Source of the DNA: a virus
Lineage: Duplodnaviria > Caudoviricetes
IMG/VR virus record: IMGVR_UViG_3300037470_000143
Location: 1 to 61,494 of that record
Reading direction: 5' to 3' (one strand)
Length of the DNA stretch: 61,494 nucleotides
The first letter of the stretch is position 1, and each line of letters begins with the position of its first letter. The notes beneath the pieces were generated by a model. It searched no databases. It was not told the origin of the DNA and saw only the letters and a list, made by a program, of their open reading frames with translations. The translations under genes were made by a program, and so were the position numbers. Below are positions 1 to 21,946 of the stretch, piece after piece.

Positions 1-520
1 CACGCCCCACCAGATCAACCCCGATGCACCGCACCCCCACGCCCCACCAGATCAACCCCGGGCCACCACCAGCACCACGCCCCCACCACCAGCACCGCAC
101 CCCGGGCCACCACCAGCACCGCACCCCGGGCCACCAGATCAGGCCCAACGGATTCGCCCCTGCCCCCTGCCCCCGGCCGCAAGCGCCACCCCATGAGCGG
201 GGCCACCCCATGAGCGGGGCCACCCACACCACCCCACACCATGAGCCCCACCGACTCCCGGGGCCTGCGTCGGCCCACCGATCCGGGCCCACGGATTCAG
301 ATCAGCACCACACCCCCGGCCCCGAGCGGCCCGGCCCCGAGCGATGCGGCCCCCACGCCCCACGGCCACCCCGGCCCAGATCAGCCCCCGCAGCACCGCA
401 CCCCCGGCCCAGATCAACACCACGGGCCGGGCCGCCGCACCCGCCGCGCATCGGCACCGCACGGCCACCCCTTGACCGGGACAACCCACGGCCGCCACCC
501 CCACGGCACCCCCTGATCGG
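1..520. repeat. C-rich terminal repeat region
   Basis: 23-bp direct repeat at 1-23/38-60; 24-bp tandem at 83-106/107-130; 17-bp tandem GCCACCCCATGAGCGGG at 185-201/202-218; recurrent CAGATCA. Confidence 0.85.
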
Positions 521-823
521 GGCCACGGGGGCACATATGGGGAAGATTCAGGGGGTTGACCTATATCTAGGGGGTTTGGGGGCCAGACCCACTGTCAACC
601 CCTCTTAACCTGTTGAAAACAAAGGATGAATTCACACAGGCGCGACTCGGGTGTCTCATGGGTTGGGCAACGCTAGGTTGCTAATGCCCCTGTAGGGGGC
701 CTTGTAGGCGTTCTGAGGGCCTATCGCACCCCCACGCCCCCGGGGCCACCCATGCCGGGCCACGATTCGCCCATGCCTGACTGAGTCGGGGGCCACCCGT
801 GGGCCTTGGATATGGGCCACCTT

Positions 824-856
824 GGGTTGACAATGTAGGCCGCTAGGTGGCACGCT
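824..856 (+). promoter_or_regulatory. Putative sigma70-type early promoter
   Basis: GGGTTGACA (TTGACA at 827-832) upstream of the first gene; -10 weak (CACGCT at 851-856). Confidence 0.5.
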
Positions 857-939
857 ACGCGTGGGTTTAGAAGCCCGGGGCCACCCGATTCGGCCCCTCA
901 TTGAACCGGCCCCCGGGGCCACAGAACAAGGAAACGACC

Positions 940-1929
940 ATGAGCTTTTTTGACACCCCCCGCACCCGCACCCTGCGCAAGTTCATTGACCATGAGGGCC
1001 CGAACGGAACCGGCCGCGTAACGGGCCTTTCCATAGAGGCAGACGGGGTTTTCATCTACACCGACTCGAGCCTCTGGTGTGACGACTCCGGGGCTGGCAC
1101 ATTCCGGGGCGATAGTGAAACCGCCGCCATTCGTCGTTTCTATGAGCGGGTGCGCGAGGCAGAGACAGAGGCCGCCGAGTCCGGCCCATGGGTGCCAGTC
1201 TGGTGCACTGGCGGAATGCTCTTAACCCTGCCTGAATTCGACGACTTCGGGGCCGCATATGAGGCATATTGTGAAAACCCGCACCAGCTGACACCCGACC
1301 AGCTGGCCGCCTCTGCCTTCCGGGGTGTCATGACGTGGGGGCAAGTCGAGTCGGGCGTGCGCACCCTGCCCCACGCTCTGCCCGCGCGACTGAATGGCGC
1401 TCAGGTTGTCCGGGCCGAGTCACATGGCAATGGCTATGCGACAATCACGGTTGAACTCGCAAACAACCCCGTGACGCCTTTCGTCGTGGCAACATGGTGG
1501 CCCGAACTCGGCACCAGCTGGCAATGGGGCCACTATTGCCGCAACGCGCGCGAGGCGGCCGAAACATTTGCCAGTGTGGCGGCCCGCAACACGGGCCGGG
1601 GCGAGATTCCCGACGTCGACGCATTCGTGAGGGGGGCCACAGTTACGGGCCCGCACCGCACGCCGCGCGACCTATCGGCGGCCGCCACCCCTGCGCACCT
1701 GTTGAATGACTATGACTCGGCCCCTGAGCCCCTGCCTCGCGCCTCTGGCACATTCCCTATGCGGGCCATGAGGGCCGCCTATCAAGCGGCCACTGAGCGG
1801 TGCGCAGACGCTATCGCCGAGTCAATGGAACTGTTTTCCGATCCGGCAGACCCGTTCGAGTCGGTGCGCGATTTCGTCGACTATCCAGGGGCCTGCGAAT
1901 TCGCACCCCTGTTGAGGGCTTACAAATGA
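940..1929 (+). CDS. Hypothetical early protein
   Basis: Long ORF; AAGGAAACGACC RBS immediately before ATG 940. Confidence 0.85.
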   Translation: MSFFDTPRTRTLRKFIDHEGPNGTGRVTGLSIEADGVFIYTDSSLWCDDSGAGTFRGDSETAAIRRFYERVREAETEAAESGPWVPVWCTGGMLLTLPEFDDFGAAYEAYCENPHQLTPDQLAASAFRGVMTWGQVESGVRTLPHALPARLNGAQVVRAESHGNGYATITVELANNPVTPFVVATWWPELGTSWQWGHYCRNAREAAETFASVAARNTGRGEIPDVDAFVRGATVTGPHRTPRDLSAAATPAHLLNDYDSAPEPLPRASGTFPMRAMRAAYQAATERCADAIAESMELFSDPADPFESVRDFVDYPGACEFAPLLRAYK

Positions 1930-2054
1930 GCGCCAACCTCGCAACCCAATATGCAGAGGCGGCCGACACTCTGGCCCGTCTGCCCGCGTATGCACTAGGC
2001 GCGGCGGCCGTGGTGGCCGTCGTTTACCTCATTCTGACTTTGAAAGGCTTTTGA
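1926..2054 (+). CDS. Small membrane peptide
   Basis: ATGA overlap with the upstream stop; hydrophobic C-terminus AAAVVAVVYLILTL. Confidence 0.6.
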   Translation: MSANLATQYAEAADTLARLPAYALGAAAVVAVVYLILTLKGF

Positions 2055-2055
2055 T

Positions 2056-2355
2056 ATGGCAACCGAAACAATCACTCTGGAAATGAACTGGCGCGCGGCC
2101 GCTAACATTATCGCGGCGGTTCTGGAAAACGGGACGCCAGAGGGGCAAGCCTCTGCGCGCGAGGAACTGGCCCGCATGGCCGACGCGGCCGACAGGGCCC
2201 GCGAACTGGCCCAGACAGTGGCCGACATTCGCGAGGAACTGAAACCCGTGGCCGAAATGAACGCGGCCGATTCTGACTATGTGTCGCGCACCGATGCACT
2301 GGAGTCGATCATGGCCGCGTTCAACCTTGCCACAGGCCGCGCAGGGGGCGAGTAG
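2056..2355 (+). CDS. Hypothetical protein
   Basis: ORF abutting the upstream gene; GAAAGG RBS-like sequence. Confidence 0.75.
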   Translation: MATETITLEMNWRAAANIIAAVLENGTPEGQASAREELARMADAADRARELAQTVADIREELKPVAEMNAADSDYVSRTDALESIMAAFNLATGRAGGE

Positions 2356-2452
2356 CGGCATTCAGAGGGGCCCAACACCCGGGCCCCTTCACCATGCCAC
2401 TACAGCATGACCACAGGCCCACAGAGGGCCAGAACCAAAGAAGGAAACGACC

Positions 2453-3973
2453 ATGACCAGAACAGTATTTGATAACGCCATGACAGCGCACGTATGGGCC
2501 AGCCAAAGCCAGCACGCGGGCCAGTCTCACAATGGCAATCTGTGGTTTGAAGGCCGCGCGATTTATTCCTACGGCACCCACTATTGCGCGGGATATGTGG
2601 CCCCCGGGGGCGTGTTTCTGTGGAATGCAGACTCGTCAACGATGACGACCACCAGCAAACATTTGCCTGCGGTGCGCCGCGCGATTCCGGGGCAGGGTTA
2701 CGGGGTGCCGGGGCTGACTGAAACCGCGCGCACCCTTGAGCACTGGGCAGGCCGGACTCGCGGACTCGCAATCATTGCAAAGCACTTGGAGTCGCATGTG
2801 GGGGCCTACTGGCCCGGGGCAGAGGCGGCCGCCGCAATTTACCGGGGCGTGGGGGCCAGTGACGCAGAGGCAGAACGCAGGGCCCGCGCAGGCGCGCAGA
2901 GGGTGGCCCGGGCCATTGCCAAAACAGAGGCAGACAAGGCCCGCGACGAACTAAACCAATACGCGGGACTCGCCCGGGGCCATTTCGCGCGCACCGACCC
3001 GGCCGATACAGCACGCATGGCCCGCGATCACTTGGCAAAGGCGGCCGACGCAAGCGCATATTGGGAAAAGGGTTATATCGAAAAGGCGCGCGAGGTGGCG
3101 CGCGAGGCGCACCGCGCGGCCAAGGCCGCCAAGGCAAAGGGGTGGACTCGTATTGCCGCGCAATGCCGCGCGCACCAGAGGGCCGCAAATGCCGAGCTGA
3201 AACGGTTCAACAAGTCGCGCAACCTGTATGCGGTGCGGGCCCGGTTGAGGGACGACATTTCGGCCATTCGTGGGGCCCCGGATCAGATCAGCCAATTCAT
3301 GAAACTGAATCCGCAGGCGAAAGAGGGGGCCACAGTCACCGACTACGCGCAAGCGGTGCGCGGGTGTGAAACAGGGGCCCGGGGGCTGTCTGAATTGTCG
3401 GCCGCGTGGCGTCGCGTCTCTGGTTCCGCCTATGCCTGCGCGGGCCTGTCTAGCGCCATGATTGCCCAGATGCGCGCGCAGGCAAGCTATGCCGCGCAGG
3501 CGTCCGAAAAGTTCCGCACCCGCGCAACCCAATTGCGCACTGAATGGCAGGCAGAGGCCCGCGCGGAATGGCTGGCAGGGGGGAAAGCAGCCCCCTATGA
3601 AATGGGCCAGCTGTGCGACGAACGCGGGGCCGCCTTGTTGCGCGCAGAGGGCGTGGAACGCGACGACTCCGGGGCAATTGTGGGTGGCACCCTGCGCACC
3701 AGTTGGGGGGCCACTGTGCCCCTGCCGCACGCAATCCGGGCCTTTCGGTTTCTGAAGTATTGCCGCGACACTGGCACCGAATGGCGCGCGAACGGCCGCA
3801 CCCTGCGCGTTGGGCATTTCAGGGTCGACCACGTCGACTCCGCAGGCAATTTCGTGGCGGGGTGCCATAAGATCAGCTGGGCCGAATGCGCGCGGCTGGC
3901 AGGGGCCTTGGGGCTGGCCGAACTTGCCGGGGCCGATACCACGGAGTCCACTGAATCGCGCGGGGTGGCGTGA
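2453..3973 (+). CDS. Large Ala/Arg-rich hypothetical early protein (506 aa)
   Basis: AAGGAAACGACC RBS; long uninterrupted ORF; no recognised function. Confidence 0.85.
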   Translation: MTRTVFDNAMTAHVWASQSQHAGQSHNGNLWFEGRAIYSYGTHYCAGYVAPGGVFLWNADSSTMTTTSKHLPAVRRAIPGQGYGVPGLTETARTLEHWAGRTRGLAIIAKHLESHVGAYWPGAEAAAAIYRGVGASDAEAERRARAGAQRVARAIAKTEADKARDELNQYAGLARGHFARTDPADTARMARDHLAKAADASAYWEKGYIEKAREVAREAHRAAKAAKAKGWTRIAAQCRAHQRAANAELKRFNKSRNLYAVRARLRDDISAIRGAPDQISQFMKLNPQAKEGATVTDYAQAVRGCETGARGLSELSAAWRRVSGSAYACAGLSSAMIAQMRAQASYAAQASEKFRTRATQLRTEWQAEARAEWLAGGKAAPYEMGQLCDERGAALLRAEGVERDDSGAIVGGTLRTSWGATVPLPHAIRAFRFLKYCRDTGTEWRANGRTLRVGHFRVDHVDSAGNFVAGCHKISWAECARLAGALGLAELAGADTTESTESRGVA

Positions 3974-4164
3974 TATGGTCGGGTGGCACCGCATAACAAA
4001 AGCCGAATGGCGCGCGGCCGGGGGCCTGCGCAATTCTGACCTGTGCCGCGTTCAACGGGGCCCGCGTTGGGTCTACTATAAACGCGCCTAGCGCCATTGC
4101 GCGAGGGGCCCCGCGTGGGCCCCTCTACCATGTCGCGAGGACATGACCACGAAAGGAAACGACC

Positions 4165-5091
4165 ATGAAAATTCAACCTGACTCCGAACTGGCCCGGGCC
4201 TATCGCGCAACGCGACGCTACCACAGTGAATCCGGGGCCCCGGGCCCGCACCGCAGGCCCGCGCATCTTGCCTTGAAAGAGGCCCGACTCCGCTTGGCAC
4301 GGGTGGCCGAATTGGTGGCCGCATATGAGGCGGCCGAGACCCGCCGCGAGTCGGCCGACGCGGCGGCCGCCATGGCCCCGGGGGCCATGAGCTGGGCCGA
4401 GCACTTGCAAAGCTTGACCACGGCCGCGCACAAGGCCCGCACGGCCAAGGTTGACGCCATGGCCCGCGCGGGCCAGTTTCACCACGGGCCCGAAGGGTGG
4501 CGCATCTGGCCCCCCGCACCGTGCGACGACGACGGGACGGCATTTTATCTAACACGCACTGATGGATATGGCGCGGTACGCGATGTGGTCGACGCGGACT
4601 CAATCATGCCGCGCGCAGGCCGGTACTATGACAACCCGCATGGCGAGTCTTGGCGCGATGGGTCCGGGCTCATGTGGGGAGTCGTCGCACGCCTTTCGCA
4701 CGGCCGGGCCTTGGCGGGGTGGCAGCATGGCGGCACCGATGGGGGCCCAACTCTCTCTGCCAAGATATTCTCTGGCCCTGATGCGGCAGAGGATGCGGCC
4801 TATTATGCAGACGGCATGGCCGAACGCGCGGCCGAACGTGAACGGGAGTACCAAGAAGCATGGCGGGCAGGCGATGACTGGGCAGAGGCCGGGAATCGTT
4901 TGTTAGAATTGCGCACAGAGATTCGCGCGTGGATAGCGGAAATGCGGCCCGCGCAGGGGCTGGCCCGCACCGCACTGTGCGAGGGGCTGAAGGCCCGACT
5001 AGAAGAAAGGCGCGAACTGATGGAAAAGCGCGAGGAACTGGCCCACGAATTCGACCATTGCGAGGGCTGGCCCGACGGGGTGGCGGGTTGA
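4165..5091 (+). CDS. Hypothetical early protein (308 aa)
   Basis: AAGGAAACGACC RBS; helical/coiled-coil-like C-terminus. Confidence 0.85.
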   Translation: MKIQPDSELARAYRATRRYHSESGAPGPHRRPAHLALKEARLRLARVAELVAAYEAAETRRESADAAAAMAPGAMSWAEHLQSLTTAAHKARTAKVDAMARAGQFHHGPEGWRIWPPAPCDDDGTAFYLTRTDGYGAVRDVVDADSIMPRAGRYYDNPHGESWRDGSGLMWGVVARLSHGRALAGWQHGGTDGGPTLSAKIFSGPDAAEDAAYYADGMAERAAEREREYQEAWRAGDDWAEAGNRLLELRTEIRAWIAEMRPAQGLARTALCEGLKARLEERRELMEKREELAHEFDHCEGWPDGVAG

Positions 5092-5219
5092 CTCCGGCCG
5101 CGCTATTGGGGCGCATCCTGCTAATTATCCTCTGGTGCGGTGCGATAGTCGGGGCGTTGGTCGACTCGTGGTATTGGGTGGCATTGGCGGCCATGCTGAC
5201 ACCCGCGCTAATGCCCTAG
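5088..5219 (+). CDS. Small membrane peptide
   Basis: TTG start overlapping the upstream TGA; two hydrophobic stretches (ILLIILWCGAIVGALV, WYWVALAAML). Confidence 0.5.
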   Translation: MTPAALLGRILLIILWCGAIVGALVDSWYWVALAAMLTPALMP

Positions 5220-5257
5220 CACCCGCCACCCTGCCCCCGGGCCCCTAGCGGCCCCTG

Positions 5258-5290
5258 AAGGCCCCTAGCTGTGCAGCTAGGGGCCTTTCC
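5258..5290 (+). terminator. Hairpin/terminator closing the first early cluster
   Basis: Perfect 13-bp stem AAGGCCCCTAGCT-gtgc-AGCTAGGGGCCTT with a short T tract. Confidence 0.65.
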
Positions 5291-5292
5291 TA

Positions 5293-5409
5293 TGCCCGGC
5301 CGCCTCTGCCCCTGCCCGGCCGCCTCTGCCCCTGCCCGGCCGCCTCTGCCCCTGCCCGGCCGCCTCGGCCCCTGCCCGGCCGCCTCGGCCCCTGCCCGGC
5401 CGCCTCGGC
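5293..5409. repeat. 20-bp tandem repeat, about 5.9 copies
   Basis: TGCCCGGCCGCCTC(T/G)GCCCC; three T-variant then three G-variant units, the last truncated. Confidence 0.95.
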
Positions 5410-5811
5410 AATCCCGACTCTTTCAATCCGGTTTCTCGAAAGTAGGTCAGCCCCCCTGACCCTTATTAGGTCAGCATAAGTTACCTATTTTTTCCGGTCC
5501 GATTGGTCTGGACGAACGCCCCCCAAGACGTATTGTTCTCAGTATGCAACCCCGTGGCCCCCCTAGACAAAACTTCGCTCGTCGCTACTTTGGCGACTCA
5601 GCCCGACGCAAAATTCGGCGCTACTTTGACGACCTAGCCCGTTACAAAAATCCGCCCATTGCCGGGCACGAACCGAGGGGACAAATTGTTCGATGACACG
5701 AAATGTGCTATGTGCCCGAAAGCCGCTCGGAACACTTCGCCCGCTACGCGCGTTTCACTTAGGACAACCCGGGAGGCGGATTGTTTCTTTAGCCGATCTC
5801 CCGGGGGAGAA

Positions 5812-6370: not shown

Positions 6371-6440
6371 AAACGAATCCGGGTCCTTCTTTGAAACGAA
6401 TCCCAAAAAACGAATCTGAAGCGACGGTTTCAAACGAATC
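6371..6440. repeat. Four AAACGAATC direct repeats
   Basis: Copies at 6371, 6394, 6408 and 6432, each containing GAATC. Confidence 0.9.
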
Positions 6441-6483
6441 CGAGCGACAGGTTGCGAGCGATTTCCCCTGTCAGGCCGCAAGC

Positions 6484-6515
6484 GGGTTGAAAGGGGACCC
6501 GTGGTAGCCTATGTT
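6484..6515 (+). promoter_or_regulatory. Putative sigma70-type promoter
   Basis: TTGAAA (6487-6492), 17 bp, TATGTT (6510-6515); same GGGTTGA...GTAGCCTA frame as 12167-12198. Confidence 0.65.
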
Positions 6516-6561
6516 TGGGGCCGAGGCTGATTCCGCCTCACCCTGACAAGAGGAAACGACC

Positions 6562-6774
6562 ATGGGAACCAACTGGCATCGGATCGGAGTGATTGGCACC
6601 AAAGGGAAGGGCCGCCTCTACGTCTCCGGAACCGAAGACGAGATCGAGCTCACCGGCCGTGTGGACGCCCTGCACTGGAACAAGCGCGAGGCGACGATAC
6701 TGACCAAAGCATTCAACGAAGAGTTCGAACGGCTGGGGCGCGAAGAGCGTTTTCAGGCCGAGAAAGCTCACTAG
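6562..6774 (+). CDS. Hypothetical protein
   Basis: GAGGAAACGACC RBS. Confidence 0.75.
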   Translation: MGTNWHRIGVIGTKGKGRLYVSGTEDEIELTGRVDALHWNKREATILTKAFNEEFERLGREERFQAEKAH

Positions 6775-8873: not shown

Positions 8874-8930
8874 CCAAACCACAACATCCGGGGCAATGTT
8901 CCCCGATCAAATCAACATATGGGAATCACC

Positions 8931-11729
8931 ATGAAAGACCTCCTGACGCATTTTCACGCTCCGATCTCCGCTGAAATCTGGCAGAACAAGTACCGTTTCG
9001 TCGACAAGTTCACGAACGAAATCTTCGACGAAACCGTTGAGGATACTTGGCGGCGCGTTGCGTCGGCACTGGCCGAACCCGAAGAGAGCAACGGGCCACT
9101 GAAAGCTGGCTCGATGAGTTCCCCGGAATACTGGACGCAGGAGTTCTACGATGCGCTCTCAGATTTCAAGTTTCTCCCGGCTGGGCGTATCCTTGCGGGG
9201 GCTGGCACCGCGCGCCGTGTGACCCTGTTCAACTGCTATGTCATGGGCACGATTCCCGATAGCATGGATGGCATCTTTTCCAGCCTCCGGGAAGCGGCGC
9301 TGACGATGCAGCAGGGGGGAGGGATCGGGTACGACTTCTCGACGATCCGCCCGAAGAACGCGCAAGTGAAGCAGGTCGCTGCCGACGCCTCCGGCCCGCT
9401 GTCCTTCATGGATGTGTGGGACGCCATGTGCAGGACGGTTATGTCGGCCGGGTCGCGGCGCGGCGCGATGATGGCGACCATGCGCTGCGACCACCCTGAC
9501 ATCGAAGCCTTCATCGGGGCGAAGGCCGATCCGAACCGTCTGCGGATGTTCAACATGTCTGTTCTGGTGACGGACGCCTTCATGGCCGCCGTCAAGAACC
9601 GGAAGAACTGGGACCTCACCTTTGGCGGGAAGGTTTACAAGACGGTCTGGGCCCCGAACCTGTGGCGAACGATCATGGAATCGACCTACGCCCACGCGGA
9701 GCCGGGCGTGATTTTCATCGACCGGATCAATCAGGAAAACAACCTGAAATACATGGAGACGATCTCGGCCACGAACCCATGTGGAGAGCAGCCGCTGCCG
9801 CCCTATGGGGCATGCCTGCTGGGCTCCATCAACCTCGCCCGCCTCGTCAAGAACCCCTACCAAACCTCGTCTGGGGTAGACATAGCTGAGTTGAGGAAAC
9901 TCGTCTCTGTTGCGATCCGGATGATGGACAACGTGAACGACGTATCGCTCTTCCCTCTGGAAGAGCAGCTGGCCGAAGCCAAGGCCAAGCGCCGCGTTGG
10001 TCTGGGCGTAACGGGCCTAGCGGACGCCCTACTGATGTGTGGCCTGCGCTACGGGTCGGACGAGGCCGCTGAACGTGCCGAGACGTGGATGAGGATGATC
10101 GCACTGGCGGCCTATGAAGCCAGCATAGACCTCGCCCGGGAGAAGGGGCCTTTCCCGGCTCTGGACCGTGCCCAGTACCTGAACAGCGGCCAATTCGCCG
10201 ATCTTAAACTGCCCGGAACCATGAAGCAGGACATCATGAAGTATGGTATCCGGAACGCTCTCCTGCTGTCCATCGCCCCGACCGGGACGATCTCGCTCTA
10301 CGCAGGGAACGTCAGCTCGGGGATCGAGCCCATCTTCGCCCCAAGCTTCACTCGGAAGACCCTTCAAGACGACGGGTCGAAGAAAGAGCAGCTCGTGGTC
10401 GACTATGCGGTCTCGGTCTGGGAAGACATGAATCGGGGCATGGTCAAAGACAACCGAGAACTGACCGGAGAGCCCACGCAGGCCCTGCCCCCGGCCTATG
10501 TCGACGCTCAGAGCCTGACCCCGGCCGAGCATGTGAAGATGCAGGCCGCCGTCCAGAAGTGGGTCGACACGTCGATCTCGAAGACCATCAACGTGCCGGA
10601 GGACATCTCGTTCGAGGACTTCAAGGCGGTCTACGAGATGGCCTTCGACAACGGCCTGAAGGGCTGCACCACCTACCGGCCTAACGAGGTCACGGGGTCT
10701 GTCATTTCGGTCGAGAAACCCAAAGGTGAATCCGAAACCACGGTGAAGTCGACACCCCACAACAACGATCTACTGAAGGCAGAAGCCAATCTGCTGATGG
10801 ATGAAGCTCGACGCTACGCCGAGACCGAGGACCACAGGAAAGAGCTGAGGAAAAAACTGACCGAACTGGGGGTATCGAAGGTCAAGGACCTGACGGGACC
10901 GCTCCATGTGGAAAAAGCACACAAGCTCTACAATTGGCTGGTCGAGCAGCAGGAGCCCAATGGTGAATCCGAAACCACGTCAAGGGGGCCAATGCTCGTC
11001 GTGGAGACAAACCCGTCCAATGATAAGTCTTGGGTCGAGAACATCTTCCGGGACGAACCAGAGGGAGACCCCTACAAGCAGTTCGCAGAAGACCTAGCGA
11101 AAGCCGAAAATGCCCCACCGGGCGGAAACGTAGTTGTCGACGAGAAGCCGCAGGAGCGCGGGTTTGTTCTCGACGGGTCGACCTACAAGATCAAGCTCGG
11201 CGACTCGGCGGCCGTCTACGTGACGATCACCGACGTGGAGACCGAGGAAGGGATGCGGCCGTTCGAAGTCTTCATCGCCACCAAAGACCCGGCGCACCAG
11301 CAGTGGACGACAGCCCTCACCCTGATGATTTCGGCCGTGTTCCGCAGGCCCCACAATAGCCGCTTCGTCGTCGAAGAGCTGAAGAGCGTCTTCGACCCGA
11401 AAGGCGGAGGCTTCTGGCATGGCAAATACTGGAACTCGACCGTGGCCGCCATCGGCCGGGTGATCGAGGTTCACATGGAGCGCATCGGCTACATCAACCG
11501 TCCGGAAGTCCCGTGGGAGCTGGTAGAAAAAGGTCGTTTGACACACGACCACCCCAATCCGCAGAGCTTTCCCCGGGATCGAGCCGAGGATTTCGTATTT
11601 GCCTCGACGCGCGGAGATGCCAAGATCGAGGTCGCGAAGAGGACGTGCCCAAAGTGCTATTCGACAAACCTGCGGCACGAGAGCGGGTGTCTGACCTGCA
11701 ACGACTGCGGCCACAGCAAGTGCGGCTGA
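8931..11729 (+). CDS. nrdJ: Class II (adenosylcobalamin-dependent) ribonucleotide reductase with C-terminal TSCPD/Zn-ribbon domain
   Basis: TLFNCYV, GGGIGYDFS, ATNPCGEQPLPPYGACLLGS, SIAPTGTIS, GLKGCTTYR and terminal CPKC..CLTCNDCGHSKCG; no nrdB nearby; start could be 8919. Confidence 0.93.
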   Translation: MKDLLTHFHAPISAEIWQNKYRFVDKFTNEIFDETVEDTWRRVASALAEPEESNGPLKAGSMSSPEYWTQEFYDALSDFKFLPAGRILAGAGTARRVTLFNCYVMGTIPDSMDGIFSSLREAALTMQQGGGIGYDFSTIRPKNAQVKQVAADASGPLSFMDVWDAMCRTVMSAGSRRGAMMATMRCDHPDIEAFIGAKADPNRLRMFNMSVLVTDAFMAAVKNRKNWDLTFGGKVYKTVWAPNLWRTIMESTYAHAEPGVIFIDRINQENNLKYMETISATNPCGEQPLPPYGACLLGSINLARLVKNPYQTSSGVDIAELRKLVSVAIRMMDNVNDVSLFPLEEQLAEAKAKRRVGLGVTGLADALLMCGLRYGSDEAAERAETWMRMIALAAYEASIDLAREKGPFPALDRAQYLNSGQFADLKLPGTMKQDIMKYGIRNALLLSIAPTGTISLYAGNVSSGIEPIFAPSFTRKTLQDDGSKKEQLVVDYAVSVWEDMNRGMVKDNRELTGEPTQALPPAYVDAQSLTPAEHVKMQAAVQKWVDTSISKTINVPEDISFEDFKAVYEMAFDNGLKGCTTYRPNEVTGSVISVEKPKGESETTVKSTPHNNDLLKAEANLLMDEARRYAETEDHRKELRKKLTELGVSKVKDLTGPLHVEKAHKLYNWLVEQQEPNGESETTSRGPMLVVETNPSNDKSWVENIFRDEPEGDPYKQFAEDLAKAENAPPGGNVVVDEKPQERGFVLDGSTYKIKLGDSAAVYVTITDVETEEGMRPFEVFIATKDPAHQQWTTALTLMISAVFRRPHNSRFVVEELKSVFDPKGGGFWHGKYWNSTVAAIGRVIEVHMERIGYINRPEVPWELVEKGRLTHDHPNPQSFPRDRAEDFVFASTRGDAKIEVAKRTCPKCYSTNLRHESGCLTCNDCGHSKCG

Positions 11730-12198: not shown

Positions 12199-12256
12199 GT
12201 GGGCAGGGCGAAGTGTGCCCTTATTTTGCAGAACCCCTCGAAAGGACTCAAGCAAC

Positions 12257-13396
12257 ATGGCTACCTTGATGCAATGCAGCGAACAGTGGATGAAGCGCCC
12301 GGCAGACGAGCGTTTTCTCTCCCTCGACGAAATGGCCGACAAGAAGCAGGCAATCCGCGATGCCTCGGCCGCGAGCGTCGTCCCGAACCGTGCTCTGAGG
12401 TTCACGACTCACCCCGGCAACCCCGAACGTGGCCTGACCATCGAAGGCTCGAACGGCTACTACGACCCGACCCACTACAGCTTCGGTCAGATCGCAGGGC
12501 TGGCCGGTGCACCTGCCTCCTACCTCCGCAAGCTGCATCCGCAGCTCGTCGCAGACAACCTGAACTACTCGATGTCATTCAACCGTGACATCGAAGAAGT
12601 TGGCGTCCTACGGACCAAGGTCACGCCGGATGTGGTGGCGGACCACGGGGGCGGCGACTTCTACGAGCACGTCGAGCTGCGCGCCGCGACCGGTCCGAAT
12701 TACGGCCGCGTCTGGGACGTCGACATCATCAACATGCTTCGCTCGCGCTTCGGCGACGGCCGCACAGGCGACTTCCGGGTCCCCGGTGAGTTCGGCCGGG
12801 ACGTCCCGATCACCCGGGACAACACGACCCTCTACGCCTCCGACCGTGACATGTTCGTCTTCCTCGCTGACGAGAACAACCGGGTCGATGTCGCCAACCG
12901 CCGCGATGGCAAGAGCGGGTCGCTCGCCCGGGGCTTCTTCGTCTGGAACTCCGAGGTCGGCAGCTCGTCGCTCGGTGCTGCGTTTTTCCTCTTCGACTTC
13001 GCCTGCTCGAACCGGATCGTCTGGGGTGCGCAGGACTTCAAAGAGATTCGCCTGCGCCACACCAGCGGCGCGCCGGATCGTTGGATGGAAGGCGTCGTGC
13101 CGGTCCTGAAGGAATACGCCAACAGTGCGGCCGCACCCATCGAACAGACCATCGCCATCGCGCAGCAGAAGCGCGTTGACGACAATCTGGCGGAGTTCTT
13201 CAAGAAGCGCCAGTTCACCCAGTCCGAGCGCCGGGTCGCCGAGGAAGCGCATCTGCGCGAAGAGGGTCGCCCCATCGAGACCCTGTGGGATGCCGTGACC
13301 GGCGTTACCGCCGCCGCCAAGTCCATCCGCAATCAGGATGACCGGGTGTCGCTGGAACGCAAGGGCGGGGCTCTGCTCGACCTCGTCGACTTCTAA
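12257..13396 (+). CDS. DUF932-family protein
   Basis: QWMKRPADERFLSL start; LYASDRDMFVFL, RGFFVWNSEVG and CSNRIVWG motifs recognised from the family. Confidence 0.75.
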   Translation: MATLMQCSEQWMKRPADERFLSLDEMADKKQAIRDASAASVVPNRALRFTTHPGNPERGLTIEGSNGYYDPTHYSFGQIAGLAGAPASYLRKLHPQLVADNLNYSMSFNRDIEEVGVLRTKVTPDVVADHGGGDFYEHVELRAATGPNYGRVWDVDIINMLRSRFGDGRTGDFRVPGEFGRDVPITRDNTTLYASDRDMFVFLADENNRVDVANRRDGKSGSLARGFFVWNSEVGSSSLGAAFFLFDFACSNRIVWGAQDFKEIRLRHTSGAPDRWMEGVVPVLKEYANSAAAPIEQTIAIAQQKRVDDNLAEFFKKRQFTQSERRVAEEAHLREEGRPIETLWDAVTGVTAAAKSIRNQDDRVSLERKGGALLDLVDF

Positions 13397-21193: not shown

Positions 21194-21946
21194 ATGACTG
21201 AACCGACCTGCTCGTTCTGCGGCCTCGTCGACAAAAGCCGCTGCCGCTCCGCCGAGCAGGCTGAGGACTGTCCCCACGCCCCGGTCGAGGGCAAGGGCCC
21301 CGTTGTGCGCTCAGGCCCGCTACGGGGGCTCAGGAGGGGGCACTACGGTGCGATCTACGCCGACGTCCCGTGGACCTTCCTCACGCGCTCCGAGAAAGGC
21401 CGTGGCCGGTCTCCTGACCAGCACTACGACGTAATGACGCTCGACGAGATCAAGGCGCTCCCGGTCGCGGAGCTGGCCGCCCCGGACTGCGCGCTGTTCT
21501 TCTGGGTGATCGACACGCATCTGGCCATGGCGCTCGATGTGATCGAGGCATGGGGCTTCACCTATAAGACGCGGGCCTTCTGCTGGGCCAAGCTCAATAC
21601 GAAGTTCTACTCCTACGAACCGACCCGGCAGCGGGCGGACAGCGACAGCGCGTGGAAGATGGGGAACGGTTTCTGGACCCGGGCCAACCCCGAGGACTGC
21701 TGGTTGGCCACGAGAGGCGCACCCAAGCGCCAGAGCGCCGCCGTGCGCCGTCTGATAGTCTCCCCCGTGCGGGAGCATAGCCGCAAGCCAGACGAGGCCA
21801 AGAACCGCATCGAGCAATTGGTGCCGGGGCCCTACGTTGAGCTGTTCTCTCGGTCGAACAGAAAAGGCTGGGATGCCATGGGTAACGAGCGCGGCAAATT
21901 CGATCCGCCTCCGGAGCTGGACGACGAAGCGATGGCCCTACTTTAG
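21194..21946 (+). CDS. MT-A70-family adenine methyltransferase
   Basis: IYADVPW (DPPW-like), LFFW, WGFTY, REHSRKP, ELFSR and GWDAMGNE. Confidence 0.9.
   Translation: MTEPTCSFCGLVDKSRCRSAEQAEDCPHAPVEGKGPVVRSGPLRGLRRGHYGAIYADVPWTFLTRSEKGRGRSPDQHYDVMTLDEIKALPVAELAAPDCALFFWVIDTHLAMALDVIEAWGFTYKTRAFCWAKLNTKFYSYEPTRQRADSDSAWKMGNGFWTRANPEDCWLATRGAPKRQSAAVRRLIVSPVREHSRKPDEAKNRIEQLVPGPYVELFSRSNRKGWDAMGNERGKFDPPPELDDEAMALL

What the first reader, a model, noticed from the sequence alone, without database searches (positions are those of the whole stretch)
541..5420. Predicted first-ejected DNA is rich in CcrM GANTC sites and poor in GATC
Seen (hand counts): about 40 GANTC and about 6 GATC in 541-5420, versus about 7 GANTC and about 19 GATC in nrdJ (8919-11729). 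That is roughly 3-fold enrichment and 5-fold depletion per kb. GAAG/CTTC also look scarce, and the signature ends near the 5293 tandem repeat. Established: GANTC is the alphaproteobacterial CcrM m6A site; lambda-like phages eject the last-packaged end first; T5 first-step DNA avoids restriction sites. Inference: given the cos position, this is the leading end. It may carry host methyl marks from the previous host for self-mimicry or early transcription while avoiding restriction targets. This would be an epigenetically primed entry segment.
Basis: partly seen in the sequence, partly recalled or inferred. Interest (0 to 1): 0.85.

Follow-up and report, generated by a model that had tools for sequence, protein, structure and literature searches.

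The report
CcrM-site island in phage early operon
The first operon at one end of this Chi-like phage genome is packed with the DNA-methylation site GANTC and stripped of some other short words, a pattern shared by many related phages, which suggests that methyl marks help this stretch of DNA when the phage infects a cell.

Summary
The hand counts are exact: 541-5420 holds 40 GANTC, 6 GATC and 13 GAAG/CTTC.

The GANTC excess survives every control:
- Dinucleotide shuffles give 10.9.
- Synonymous-codon permutation gives 32 observed against 20.1, with 0 of 2000 permutations reaching 32.
- Codon-order permutation gives 9.7.

GAAG/CTTC avoidance also survives these controls. GATC depletion is mostly compositional.

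The region is one early operon beside a genome end that matches phage Chi's cos end by synteny. The same GANTC island recurs in the terminal early blocks of S-ESS1, Ruegeria phage DSS3-P1, Erythrobacter phage R16L and 12 of 20 GANTC-tolerant IMG/VR relatives. The site positions turn over between relatives, there is no flanking preference, and the gene content can differ.

Relatives that avoid GANTC genome-wide encode the same dipeptides so that no GANTC arises. Each lineage also avoids its own set of words on both strands. In Chi and Utah the terminal block is enriched in GATC instead.

Best reading: selection acts on the DNA itself in an early, probably first-entering segment, for density of CcrM-type methyl sites and against restriction targets. 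Methylation, entry order and the benefit were not tested.

The parts
1..540 (+). C-rich, repeat-filled non-coding leader at the left end of the record (GC above 0.75); holds 3 GANTC
   Evidence: Tandem and direct repeats. The only ORFs are Pro/His/Arg-rich and have no coding-type GC pattern. The record ends are colinear with both ends of S-ESS1 and with Chi's cos-bounded map: TerL lies 11.3-11.4 kb from the far end in all three.
541..939 (+). Leader and probable promoter region of the early operon, with 5 GANTC (545, 644, 764, 783, 887)
   Evidence: Sequence, sites. 4 of the 5 sites fit YGAKTCK on one strand. The E. coli-type consensus scan found no promoter here, so the promoter is inferred.
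940..1929 (+). Early gene 1 (329 aa), function unknown; 9 GANTC
   Evidence: ORF with the shared ribosome-site/start block (family D4). No Pfam, PHROG or NCBIfam hit. Weak DNA matches to Phaeobacter, Ruegeria, Rhizobium and Stenotrophomonas phages.
2056..2355 (+). Early gene 2 (99 aa), function unknown; 2 GANTC
   Evidence: Weak match to phrog_22670.
2453..3973 (+). Early gene 3 (506 aa): conserved N- and C-terminal domains joined by a long helical middle; phrog_7247; 12 GANTC
   Evidence: AlphaFold2 model with mean pLDDT 83.7. No PDB fold match. BFVD matches are only uncharacterised phage proteins, including one from phiCbK. The C-terminal domain lies inside the terminal repeats of phiCbK-type phages.
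4165..5091 (+). Early gene 4 (308 aa), phrog_8188, function unknown; 9 GANTC
5257..5288 (+). Strong hairpin followed by a short T-rich stretch: terminator-like end of the early operon
   Evidence: -38 kcal/mol for 5236-5300, z -3.2, 0 of 200 shuffles fold as well. Sequence.
5293..5406 (.). 20-bp tandem repeat x5.7 at the inner edge of the island
   Evidence: Unrelated GC-rich tandem arrays sit at the same place in S-ESS1, L007 and L008.
5579..5649 (.). 36-bp direct repeat x2, conserved in S-ESS1 and L007
6372..6444 (+). Four AAACGAATC repeats (each holds a GANTC), upstream of a promoter-like site at 6487-6515 and of the next gene at 6562
   Evidence: The same repeats, with spacing 23 and 14, occur in S-ESS1, and two copies occur in L007.
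21194..21933 (+). Phage MT-A70 family N6-adenine methyltransferase, a possible writer of the marks; specificity unknown
   Evidence: Pfam PF05063, E 6e-22. Homologues in 4 of 31 relatives' records. No PF01555 (CcrM-type) gene in the window or in any of the 31 relatives.

Best explanation
Window 541-5290 is the terminal early operon of a Chi-like (Casjensviridae) cos phage. It consists of a leader, four genes of unknown function on the + strand, a hairpin and repeat arrays.

Its DNA, not only its proteins, is under selection. Selection favours many copies of GANTC, the target of CcrM-type adenine methyltransferases. It also disfavours a lineage-specific set of short words on both strands (here GAAG/CTTC, CGCC/GGCG, GGAC and others).

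Most likely working (inferred): this is the stretch of the genome that meets the host first and unprotected, like the T5 first-step-transfer DNA or the T7-type leading region. On this reading it is kept free of restriction targets. It also carries a high density of m6A marks, written in the previous cycle by host CcrM or by the phage's own methyltransferase. The marks would favour immediate expression or survival of the incoming, fully methylated genome and would be lost on replicated copies.

Shown here: the selection, its conservation, its position at a genome end, and its independence of gene content.
Inferred: methylation, entry order, and the benefit.
For: 1. The signal passes all nulls.

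2. An unbiased test of 272 words (136 strand-symmetric 4-mers plus 136 XYNZW words) ranks GANTC as follows under synonymous and codon-order permutation:
- window: 3rd and 2nd
- S-ESS1: 2nd and 1st
- Erythrobacter phage R16L: 1st and 1st
- Ruegeria phage DSS3-P1, genes 01-12: 1st and 1st, 52 vs 26.2 and 13.0
Controls show nothing: nrdJ, DSS3-P1 genes 26-36 (14 vs 14.7), and five other gene blocks of the window, including the right-end ORF (GANTC z -1.5 to +1.0).

3. Of 32 IMG/VR loci holding a homologue of gene 3, 20 have a background of at least 1.5 GANTC/kb. In 12 of those 20 the gene's neighbourhood is at least 2-fold enriched. The two copies of a phiCbK-like terminal repeat show 3.7 vs 0.4-0.5 per kb.

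4. The motif is exactly GANTC. All four central bases occur and the flanks are near background in 639 sites from 12 islands. Spacing has no period.

5. Site positions turn over: window and S-ESS1 share 3 alignment columns out of 12 and 17 sites.

6. Selection reaches the protein.
- The island has 22 Asp/Glu-Ser pairs, of which 21 are written GAN-TCN.
- Gene 3 has 6 such pairs against 2.7 expected, all written GAN-TCN.
- Its orthologues in GANTC-rich phages have such pairs at 1.3-3.4 times expectation, mostly written GAN-TCN.
- Orthologues in four GANTC-avoiding phages write all of theirs with AGY (2 of 2, 2 of 2, 1 of 1, 1 of 1).

7. DSS3-P1's island has no homologue of the four window proteins.

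8. Terminus.
- The window is colinear end to end with S-ESS1.
- TerL lies 11.3-11.4 kb from the far end, as in Chi and Utah, whose ends are cohesive.
- The gene-3 homologue lies within 6 kb of a contig end in 13 of 24 contigs of at least 40 kb (binomial p about 4e-4).
- It does so in 9 of the 11 contigs classed linear and at least 90% complete.

9. Avoided words are depleted in both orientations and differ between lineages. GGNCC is 3 vs 33.5 in S-ESS1. GGCC is 7 vs 44.7 and ACCG/CGGT 1 vs 29.3 in R16L. GGCC is enriched in the window, 104 vs 61.

10. Parallel with another housekeeping methyltransferase. In Chi and Utah (Dam hosts) the terminal block is enriched in GATC, not GANTC. Chi has 46 vs 27.5 (rank 4 of 272) and Utah 47 vs 28.5 (rank 3). 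Chi's control block has 47 vs 51.5.

11. Literature, passages read.
- GANTC is under-represented in alphaproteobacterial genomes (PMC8919816).
- Phages of these hosts often carry GANTC-specific methyltransferases (PMC5537653, PMC7139368).
- Restriction sites matter only in the first-entering DNA of T5-like phages (PMC10644984) and of Autographiviridae (PMC12455610, abstract only).
Against: - No methylation data and no entry-order data exist for this phage.
- The host is unknown, and the nearest named relative is deposited with a Synechococcus host.
- The window has no terminal repeat and no recognisable T5 pre-early genes.
- The orientation of the block differs between relatives. It points inward in the window, S-ESS1, L007 and L008. 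It points toward the end in DSS3-P1, Chi, R16L and seven IMG/VR contigs. A model in which transcription pulls the DNA in therefore cannot be general.
- The island is not universal. 8 of the 20 GANTC-tolerant loci are below 2-fold. Loktanella phage pCB2051-A has only a 1.5-kb cluster at its record ends. Four of the five MAG loci show little or nothing.
- The Dam parallel holds in one lineage only. Stilesk gives z 1.3 and AVP3 z 2.1.
- Most GANTC-island relatives lack an MT-A70 or CcrM-type gene, so the writer is unclear.
- The GcrA-preferred context is not enriched.
- More sites confer no obvious benefit under a pure 'look like self' model.
Confidence: 0.45

Rival explanations
1. The GANTC array is a landing pad for a protein that reads GANTC, methylated or not. 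Candidates are GcrA-RNA polymerase, CcrM itself or a phage early protein. Binding along the entering DNA would pull it in or shield it (a ratchet or coat), rather than regulate transcription.
For: Density matters, not position: sites turn over, spacing has no period, and sites sit in gene bodies as well as in the leader. The island is at a genome end in both gene orientations. 4 of the 5 leader sites fit the GcrA-preferred YGAKTCK.
Against: YGAKTCK is not enriched among island sites (153 of 698 vs 218 of 676 outside). In Caulobacter most of the 4542 GANTC sites bind little GcrA (PMC4647560, passages read). The window has no GcrA-like gene. No DNA-binding fold was found in the one early protein that was modelled.
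Confidence: 0.15
2. The sites gate a late or replicative step at the genome end. On this reading, cos cleavage, packaging or initiation of replication would need, or be blocked by, GANTC methylation. This resembles phage P1, whose pac site is cut only when its clustered Dam sites are methylated (recalled from memory, not read here).
For: The island abuts the genome end. Primase and helicase genes lie just across the joined ends. GANTC clusters near chromosomal origins in four alphaproteobacterial orders (PMC9836097, passage read). Phage GANTC methyltransferase genes sit beside replication genes (PMC5537653, passage read). pCB2051-A has a tight cluster right at its record ends.
Against: The sites are spread evenly over 5 kb of one operon rather than focused at the end. 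The enrichment stops at the operon's terminator, not at a fixed distance from the end. In contigs assembled as circles the island still coincides with the gene block.
Confidence: 0.12
3. The island enters unmethylated and soaks up host CcrM or the phage methyltransferase (a sponge). This would upset the host cell cycle or delay methylation elsewhere.
For: The density of exact CcrM sites is high and has no flank preference. CcrM is scarce for most of the cell cycle (PMC9516812, passage read).
Against: About 40-80 sites are few beside thousands of chromosomal sites (4542 in Caulobacter, PMC4647560). This model gives no reason for the sites to sit in the early operon.
Confidence: 0.05
4. There is no selection on GANTC. 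The excess would be a by-product of unusual protein composition, codon usage or higher G+C, or of a recently imported module that keeps its donor's composition.
For: The island has higher G+C (0.653 vs 0.605) and Ala/Arg/Gly-rich proteins. Many words differ from the rest of the genome. The gene-3 family is shared among unrelated phages. The GATC depletion is indeed mostly compositional.
Against: GANTC exceeds all four null models. It ranks first to third of 272 words in four phages. It recurs where sequences are only 30-40% identical and sites are not conserved, and where the genes are different. The same protein family is coded to avoid GANTC in phages that avoid it. No donor with genome-wide GANTC richness was seen among the records examined.
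Confidence: 0.04

Closest known systems
First-step-transfer (pre-early) region of phage T5 and relatives
   Same: A block of early genes of mostly unknown function sits at a genome end. Restriction counts only when the recognition site lies in this block (PMC10644984, passages read). Repeats lie at its inner edge. The size is similar: 5.4 of 61.5 kb (8.8%) here against 7.9% in T5 (bioRxiv 10.1101/866236, abstract in the search listing). Homologues of gene 3 lie inside the 10-kb terminal repeats of phiCbK-type phages.
   Different: The window has no terminal direct repeat. No A1, A2 or dmp-type proteins were recognised. Two-step entry is not shown. In what I read, enrichment of a methylation site is not a described T5 feature.
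Leading (first-injected) region of Autographiviridae
   Same: The position of restriction-modification motifs in the first-injected DNA decides sensitivity, and this shapes that region (PMC12455610, abstract read).
   Different: Those are podoviruses whose entry is driven by transcription. Only motif loss is reported there, not gain of a methyltransferase site.
GcrA/CcrM methylation-dependent promoters of Caulobacter
   Same: Methylated GANTC near promoters boosts sigma-70 transcription through GcrA (PMC4647560). 4 of the 5 sites in the window's leader fit YGAKTCK.
   Different: Most island sites are inside genes and do not prefer that context. GcrA dependence of this operon is untested.
Clusters of orphan-methyltransferase sites at functional DNA (GATC at oriC and the P1 pac site; GANTC near alphaproteobacterial origins)
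   Same: There is local over-representation of a housekeeping adenine-methyltransferase site against a genome-wide deficit (PMC9836097 and PMC8919816, passages read). The oriC and P1 pac examples are recalled from memory.
   Different: Those clusters span tens to hundreds of bases at one cis-acting site. Here about 40 sites are spread over a 5-kb coding operon.
Restriction-site avoidance in phage genomes
   Same: Short words are depleted on both strands in a lineage-specific way. GTAC is avoided across the whole window. Whole-genome GANTC avoidance occurs in RDJL3, Leszy and several IMG/VR relatives and in pelagiphage clades (PMC9516812).
   Different: Here most of the avoidance is confined to one operon, and it comes with positive selection for another word.

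Membership tests
Casjensviridae (Chi-like siphoviruses) | Large terminase and gene order like phage Chi | tested here: met
   TerL is 67.8% identical to S-ESS1 (classified in Casjensviridae) and 47% to Chi over the full length. The window is colinear end to end with S-ESS1. TerL lies 11.3-11.4 kb from one end, as in Chi.
Casjensviridae (Chi-like siphoviruses) | Cohesive (cos) genome ends | not testable with these tools
   Inferred only, from synteny with Chi and Utah (the Utah record notes cohesive ends) and from the shared ends of independent linear records.
T5-type first-step-transfer region | Lies at the genome end that enters first | tested here: inconclusive
   The position at a genome end is supported. 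Which end enters first cannot be read from sequence. The other end shows no word signature.
T5-type first-step-transfer region | Contained in a long terminal direct repeat | tested here: not met
   IMG/VR classes the record as linear with no end repeats. The first and last 120 bases differ. phiCbK-type relatives do carry the homologous gene in a terminal repeat.
T5-type first-step-transfer region | Entry pauses at an injection stop signal; pre-early proteins A1 and A2 are needed to resume | not testable with these tools
   Tandem repeats sit at the inner edge here and in three relatives, which is only suggestive. No family hit was found for the four proteins.
T5-type first-step-transfer region | Locally free of host restriction sites | tested here: met
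   GAAG 6 vs 21.6 and CTTC 2 vs 10.3, with 0 of 2000 permutations as low for either word. Depletion holds on both strands and is confined to the first 6 kb. That these words are restriction targets is inferred.
CcrM methylation targets | Sequence GANTC with a free central base | tested here: met
   Central bases in the window island are C 18, G 12, T 7, A 4. Flanks are near background in 639 pooled sites.
CcrM methylation targets | N6-methyladenine present at the sites | not testable with these tools
   No methylome data. The phage's own MT-A70 enzyme has unknown specificity.
GcrA-activated promoters | Promoter-proximal site in the context YGAKTCK | tested here: inconclusive
   4 of the 5 leader sites fit the context, but the promoter is not mapped. 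Island sites overall fit it in 153 of 698 cases against 218 of 676 outside.
P1 pac-type methylation-gated packaging site | Tight cluster of methyltransferase sites at the cleavage site | tested here: not met
   There are 3 sites in the first 540 nt, while about 40 are spread over 5 kb of coding DNA. The P1 feature itself is recalled from memory.

The most novel reading that the evidence does not exclude
Phages of bacteria that keep a housekeeping orphan adenine methyltransferase (CcrM in Alphaproteobacteria, Dam in enterics) load the first-entering early operon with that enzyme's target sites. The m6A inherited from the previous cycle would then act as an epigenetic ignition key. It would mark the single incoming genome as fully methylated, switch on or protect immediate-early expression, and be erased by replication, so that early genes shut off by themselves on progeny DNA.
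Probability: 0.25. Interest if true: 0.85.

Novelty: new variant of a known kind. Interest (0 to 1): 0.72.

Why it matters
Restriction-site loss in first-entering phage DNA is known. A conserved gain of the host-type methylation site in the same place appears not to be described. I found no description in the searches made: searches gave listings, and I read passages of nine papers.

If the sites are methylated and useful, this would give CcrM-type methylation a direct role in phage infection. It would also explain why so many phages of Alphaproteobacteria carry GANTC methyltransferases.

It would offer a sequence signature for finding early or leading regions and genome ends in uncultured phages.

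It is directly testable in cultured systems: Ruegeria phage DSS3-P1, Erythrobacter phage R16L, and Chi with Dam.

Tried and rejected
Function of the early proteins.
- Pfam, PHROGs and NCBIfam gave no informative family.
- A profile search of PDB sequences gave only coiled-coil noise.
- The ESM Atlas gave only unnamed viral clusters and a weak DUF8033 lead.
- The AlphaFold2 model of gene 3 had no PDB fold match. Its BFVD matches are only uncharacterised phage proteins.

Writer of the marks.
- No CcrM-type (PF01555) or GcrA (PF07750) gene is present.
- The homologues of the MT-A70 gene are mostly in phages of Gammaproteobacteria and do not reveal its specificity.
- Presence of MT-A70 or PF01555 does not track the island across the 31 relatives' records: 4 of 31 and 0 of 31.

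Extended motif or periodic spacing around GANTC: none found.
GcrA context: not enriched.

GATC avoidance implemented through context-specific Ile codons: rejected. ATC is lowered whether or not a G precedes it.

Close relatives by single-protein search of viral contigs: none; the alignment query worked. Megablast of the region against phages: no match.

General rule 'host orphan methyltransferase site is enriched': it holds for Chi and Utah but not for Stilesk or AVP3, so I keep it only as a lead.

Not used: reads and sequencing runs, the search for homologous proteins, the search of protein representatives, complex prediction.

Full report
THE OBSERVATION

- 541-5420: 40 GANTC, 6 GATC, 10 GAAG, 3 CTTC.
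- nrdJ (8919-11729): 7 GANTC, 19 GATC, 34 GAAG, 16 CTTC.
- Whole record: 189 GANTC and 425 GATC.

In 2-kb windows, GANTC is 13-17 in the first five windows and 3-10 everywhere else. GAAG+CTTC is 4-8 there and 17-43 elsewhere. The signature starts in the first few hundred bases and ends at about 5.6 kb.

IS IT MORE THAN COMPOSITION?

Four null models were run.
- Dinucleotide-preserving shuffles: 10.9+-2.9 GANTC against 40 observed, 0 of 1000 reach 40.
- Synonymous-codon permutation inside the four + strand genes (940-1929, 2056-2355, 2453-3973, 4165-5091). This keeps the protein sequences and regional codon usage. It gives 20.1+-2.5 against 32 observed, 0 of 2000 reach 32.
- Permuting codon order gives 9.7.
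- Re-coding the same proteins with the codon usage of 18 genes from the rest of the genome gives 19.5, 0 of 1000 reach 32.

21 of the 32 genic sites are in frame 0 as GAN-TCN. They correspond to 21 of the 22 Asp/Glu-Ser pairs. The excess is therefore written both into codon choice and into the protein sequence.

GAAG (6 vs 21.6) and CTTC (2 vs 10.3) are avoided beyond codon usage, with 0 of 2000 permutations as low for either word.

GATC is different. It is 6 vs 6.8 under regional codon usage and 6 vs 12.6 under genome-wide usage (7 of 1000 as low). Its low density here is therefore mostly due to protein composition and a general shift away from ATC.

An unbiased test of 272 words puts GANTC 3rd (synonymous null) and 2nd (codon-order null) among enriched words in the island. 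Only GGCC and GGNCC rank above it. Five other gene blocks of the window, including the ORF at the opposite end of the genome, give GANTC z between -1.5 and +1.0.

WHAT THE REGION IS

The layout, in order:
- A C-rich, repeat-filled, non-coding stretch (1-540).
- A 400-nt leader.
- Four genes, three of which share the same ribosome-site/start block.
- A strong hairpin.
- A 20-bp x5.7 tandem repeat and a 36-bp x2 repeat.
- Four AAACGAATC repeats.
- A promoter-like site in front of the next gene.

The island thus coincides with one transcription unit.

None of the four proteins has an informative family. The 506-aa protein (phrog_7247) folds confidently (pLDDT 83.7). It matches only uncharacterised phage proteins.

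The phage is Chi-like. Its TerL is 67.8% identical to that of S-ESS1 (Casjensviridae) and 47% to that of Chi.

The window is colinear with the reverse complement of S-ESS1 from end to end. In the window, S-ESS1, Chi and Utah, TerL lies 11.3-11.4 kb from one end. Chi-type ends are cohesive according to a note in the Utah record. The window's ends are therefore very probably the physical cos ends, and the island sits at the end far from the terminase genes.

RELATIVES

S-ESS1 has 19-31 GANTC per 2 kb in its homologous terminal 6 kb and 0-11 elsewhere.

The C-terminal domain of gene 3 occurs in 33 phage records. The hosts are almost all Alphaproteobacteria: Caulobacter 17, Brevundimonas 5, Erythrobacter 2, Rhizobium 2. 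In phiCbK-type phages it lies inside the 10-kb terminal repeats.

Erythrobacter phage R16L has 19, 30 and 32 GANTC per 2 kb in its first 6 kb, against 2-10 elsewhere.

An alignment-based scan of IMG/VR gave 32 loci.
- Among the 20 loci with background GANTC of at least 1.5/kb, 12 show at least 2-fold enrichment around the gene.
- Twelve loci have lower background GANTC. Nine of these nearly lack the word genome-wide and show no island.
- The two copies of a phiCbK-like repeat show 3.7 vs 0.4-0.5 per kb.
- GATC is less than half the outside density in 13 of the 32 loci.
- The gene lies within 6 kb of a contig end in 13 of 24 contigs of at least 40 kb (p about 4e-4).
- It does so in 9 of the 11 contigs classed linear and at least 90% complete.
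- In contigs assembled with terminal repeats, that is as circles, it is internal.

Ruegeria phage DSS3-P1 is a cultured Casjensviridae phage of a roseobacter.
- It has 22, 19 and 19 GANTC per 2 kb in its first 6 kb, against about 5.5 elsewhere.
- GANTC ranks first of 272 words under both nulls (52 vs 26.2 and 13.0). A control block is flat.
- Its island has no homologue of the four window proteins.

The island is therefore a property of the terminal early block, not of a gene family.

NATURE OF THE SELECTION

Pooling 639 island sites from 12 islands shows all four central bases, flanks close to background and no periodic spacing. The selected word is precisely the CcrM/HinfI-type word.

Positions are mostly not conserved between orthologues: 3 shared columns between window and S-ESS1 out of 12 and 17 sites. 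Density is what is maintained, not particular sites.

The same protein family is pushed in opposite directions. In GANTC-rich phages, Asp/Glu-Ser pairs occur at 1.3-3.4 times expectation and are mostly written GAN-TCN. In four GANTC-avoiding phages all such pairs are written with AGY.

Each lineage also avoids its own words in both orientations.
- GAAG/CTTC, CGCC and GGAC in the window.
- GGNCC (3 vs 33.5) and ACCC in S-ESS1.
- GGCC (7 vs 44.7), ACCG/CGGT (1 vs 29.3), GACC and CATC in R16L.

Strand symmetry points to recognition of double-stranded DNA, as by restriction enzymes, and not to an RNA-level effect.

A PARALLEL OUTSIDE THE ALPHAPROTEOBACTERIA

In Chi and its close relative Utah, whose hosts have Dam, the terminal block is enriched in GATC and not in GANTC.
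- Chi: 46 vs 27.5, rank 4 of 272.
- Utah: 47 vs 28.5, rank 3.
- Chi's neighbouring control block is flat at 47 vs 51.5.

The parallel does not hold for Providencia phage Stilesk (z 1.3) or Aeromonas phage AVP3 (z 2.1). Burkholderia phage AH2 shows neither word enriched. This is one lineage, so it is a lead and not a rule.

HOW IT MOST LIKELY WORKS

Known biology, from passages read:
- GANTC is under-represented in alphaproteobacterial genomes (PMC8919816), and some phage clades avoid it (PMC9516812).
- Phages of these hosts often encode GANTC-specific methyltransferases unrelated to CcrM (PMC5537653, PMC7139368).
- In T5-like phages restriction acts only on sites in the first-step-transfer DNA (PMC10644984).
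- In Autographiviridae the motif's presence in the leading region decides sensitivity (PMC12455610, abstract only).

The simplest reading of word avoidance confined to one terminal operon is that this DNA is exposed before the rest, or before protection is in place.

A phage can afford many GANTC sites only if they are reliably methylated. That fits the phage-borne methyltransferases. The window has an MT-A70 enzyme. DSS3-P1 has a gene annotated as DNA methylase, and PMC7139368 reports its methylase as related to an enzyme verified to be GANTC-specific.

I therefore favour a methyl-marked, early-exposed segment. What the marks do is inferred. Options are to help host RNA polymerase start on the fully methylated parental genome, to time the shut-off of early genes after replication, or to shield the DNA.

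The GcrA route has limited support. 4 of the 5 leader sites fit the YGAKTCK context. The bulk of sites do not (153 of 698 vs 218 of 676 outside). Most gene-body sites bind little GcrA in Caulobacter (PMC4647560).

WHAT SPEAKS AGAINST THIS READING, AND WHAT IS OPEN
- There are no methylation or entry data.
- The host is unknown. S-ESS1 is deposited with a Synechococcus host, although the affinities of the early genes are alphaproteobacterial.
- The window has no terminal repeat.
- The orientation of the block differs between relatives.
- The island is absent or weak in 8 of the 20 tolerant loci, in pCB2051-A apart from a 1.5-kb end cluster, and in most MAG loci.
- Most island phages lack an MT-A70 or CcrM-type gene.

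NOVELTY

Local loss of restriction sites in leading DNA is known. A conserved, positively selected island of the housekeeping methyltransferase's site in the same block was not found in the searches made. One search returned 104 papers, of which 30 were listed. One search returned 8 papers. One search returned 16, of which 12 were listed. I read only listings and passages of nine papers, so this is not proof of absence.

VERDICT

The mechanism is open but directly testable in cultured phage-host pairs.

Noticed in passing
window, whole record: GTAC is scarce across the whole genome: 26 in 61.5 kb, and 1-4 observed against 8-33 expected in every gene block under synonymous permutation. This looks like genome-wide avoidance of an RsaI-type site, unlike the island-only words.
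   Followed up: partly
window 940-5091: GGCC (104 vs about 60) and GGNCC (78 vs about 44) are enriched in the island beyond codon controls. GGCC is strongly avoided in R16L's island (7 vs 44.7) and GGNCC in S-ESS1's (3 vs 33.5). Opposite signs in relatives suggest host-specific pressures, possibly another methylated word.
   Followed up: partly
window 6372-6444; L006 5936-5981; L007 6958-7003: AAACGAATC repeats, each holding a GANTC site, are conserved with the same 23- and 14-nt spacing in S-ESS1, and in two copies in L007. They lie just upstream of a promoter-like site (6487-6515) for the next operon. This could be a methylation-sensitive operator.
   Followed up: partly
window 924-942, 2437-2455, 4149-4167, 6546-6564: Four genes share a nearly identical ribosome-site, spacer and start block (family D4).
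   Followed up: no
window 5579-5649; L006 5120-5187; L007 6153-6223: A 35-36-bp direct repeat x2 is conserved in three phages between the early operon and the next genes. It could be a pair of iterons or operators.
   Followed up: no
L045 (Roseobacter phage RDJL3, 1-50000): There are only 5 GANTC in 50 kb (0.1/kb), a near-total avoidance. Among roseophages both extremes exist, avoidance and island enrichment.
   Followed up: no
L038 (phage Chi, 9579-59578): CCWGG (the Dcm/EcoRII site) is absent from all 50 kb examined.
   Followed up: no
L004 (Erythrobacter phage R16L, 1-6000): Word usage is extreme. ACCG/CGGT is 1 against 66 expected from the rest of the genome, and GACC/GGTC is 3 vs 51. CTAG, usually rare, is enriched at 42 vs 7.
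   Followed up: partly
L001/L002 (S-ESS1): The deposited host is Synechococcus. However, gene content, relatives and the GANTC signature point to an alphaproteobacterial host or a GANTC-methylating phage enzyme. Many annotated genes in the record look split.
   Followed up: no
L044/L046 (Loktanella phage pCB2051-A record ends): There are 9 GANTC in the last 500 nt and 5 in the first 1 kb of the record, a tight cluster at the ends without a multi-kb island.
   Followed up: partly
window 12215-13396: A DUF932 protein gene lies in the + strand middle operon, between nrdJ and other nucleotide-metabolism genes.
   Followed up: no
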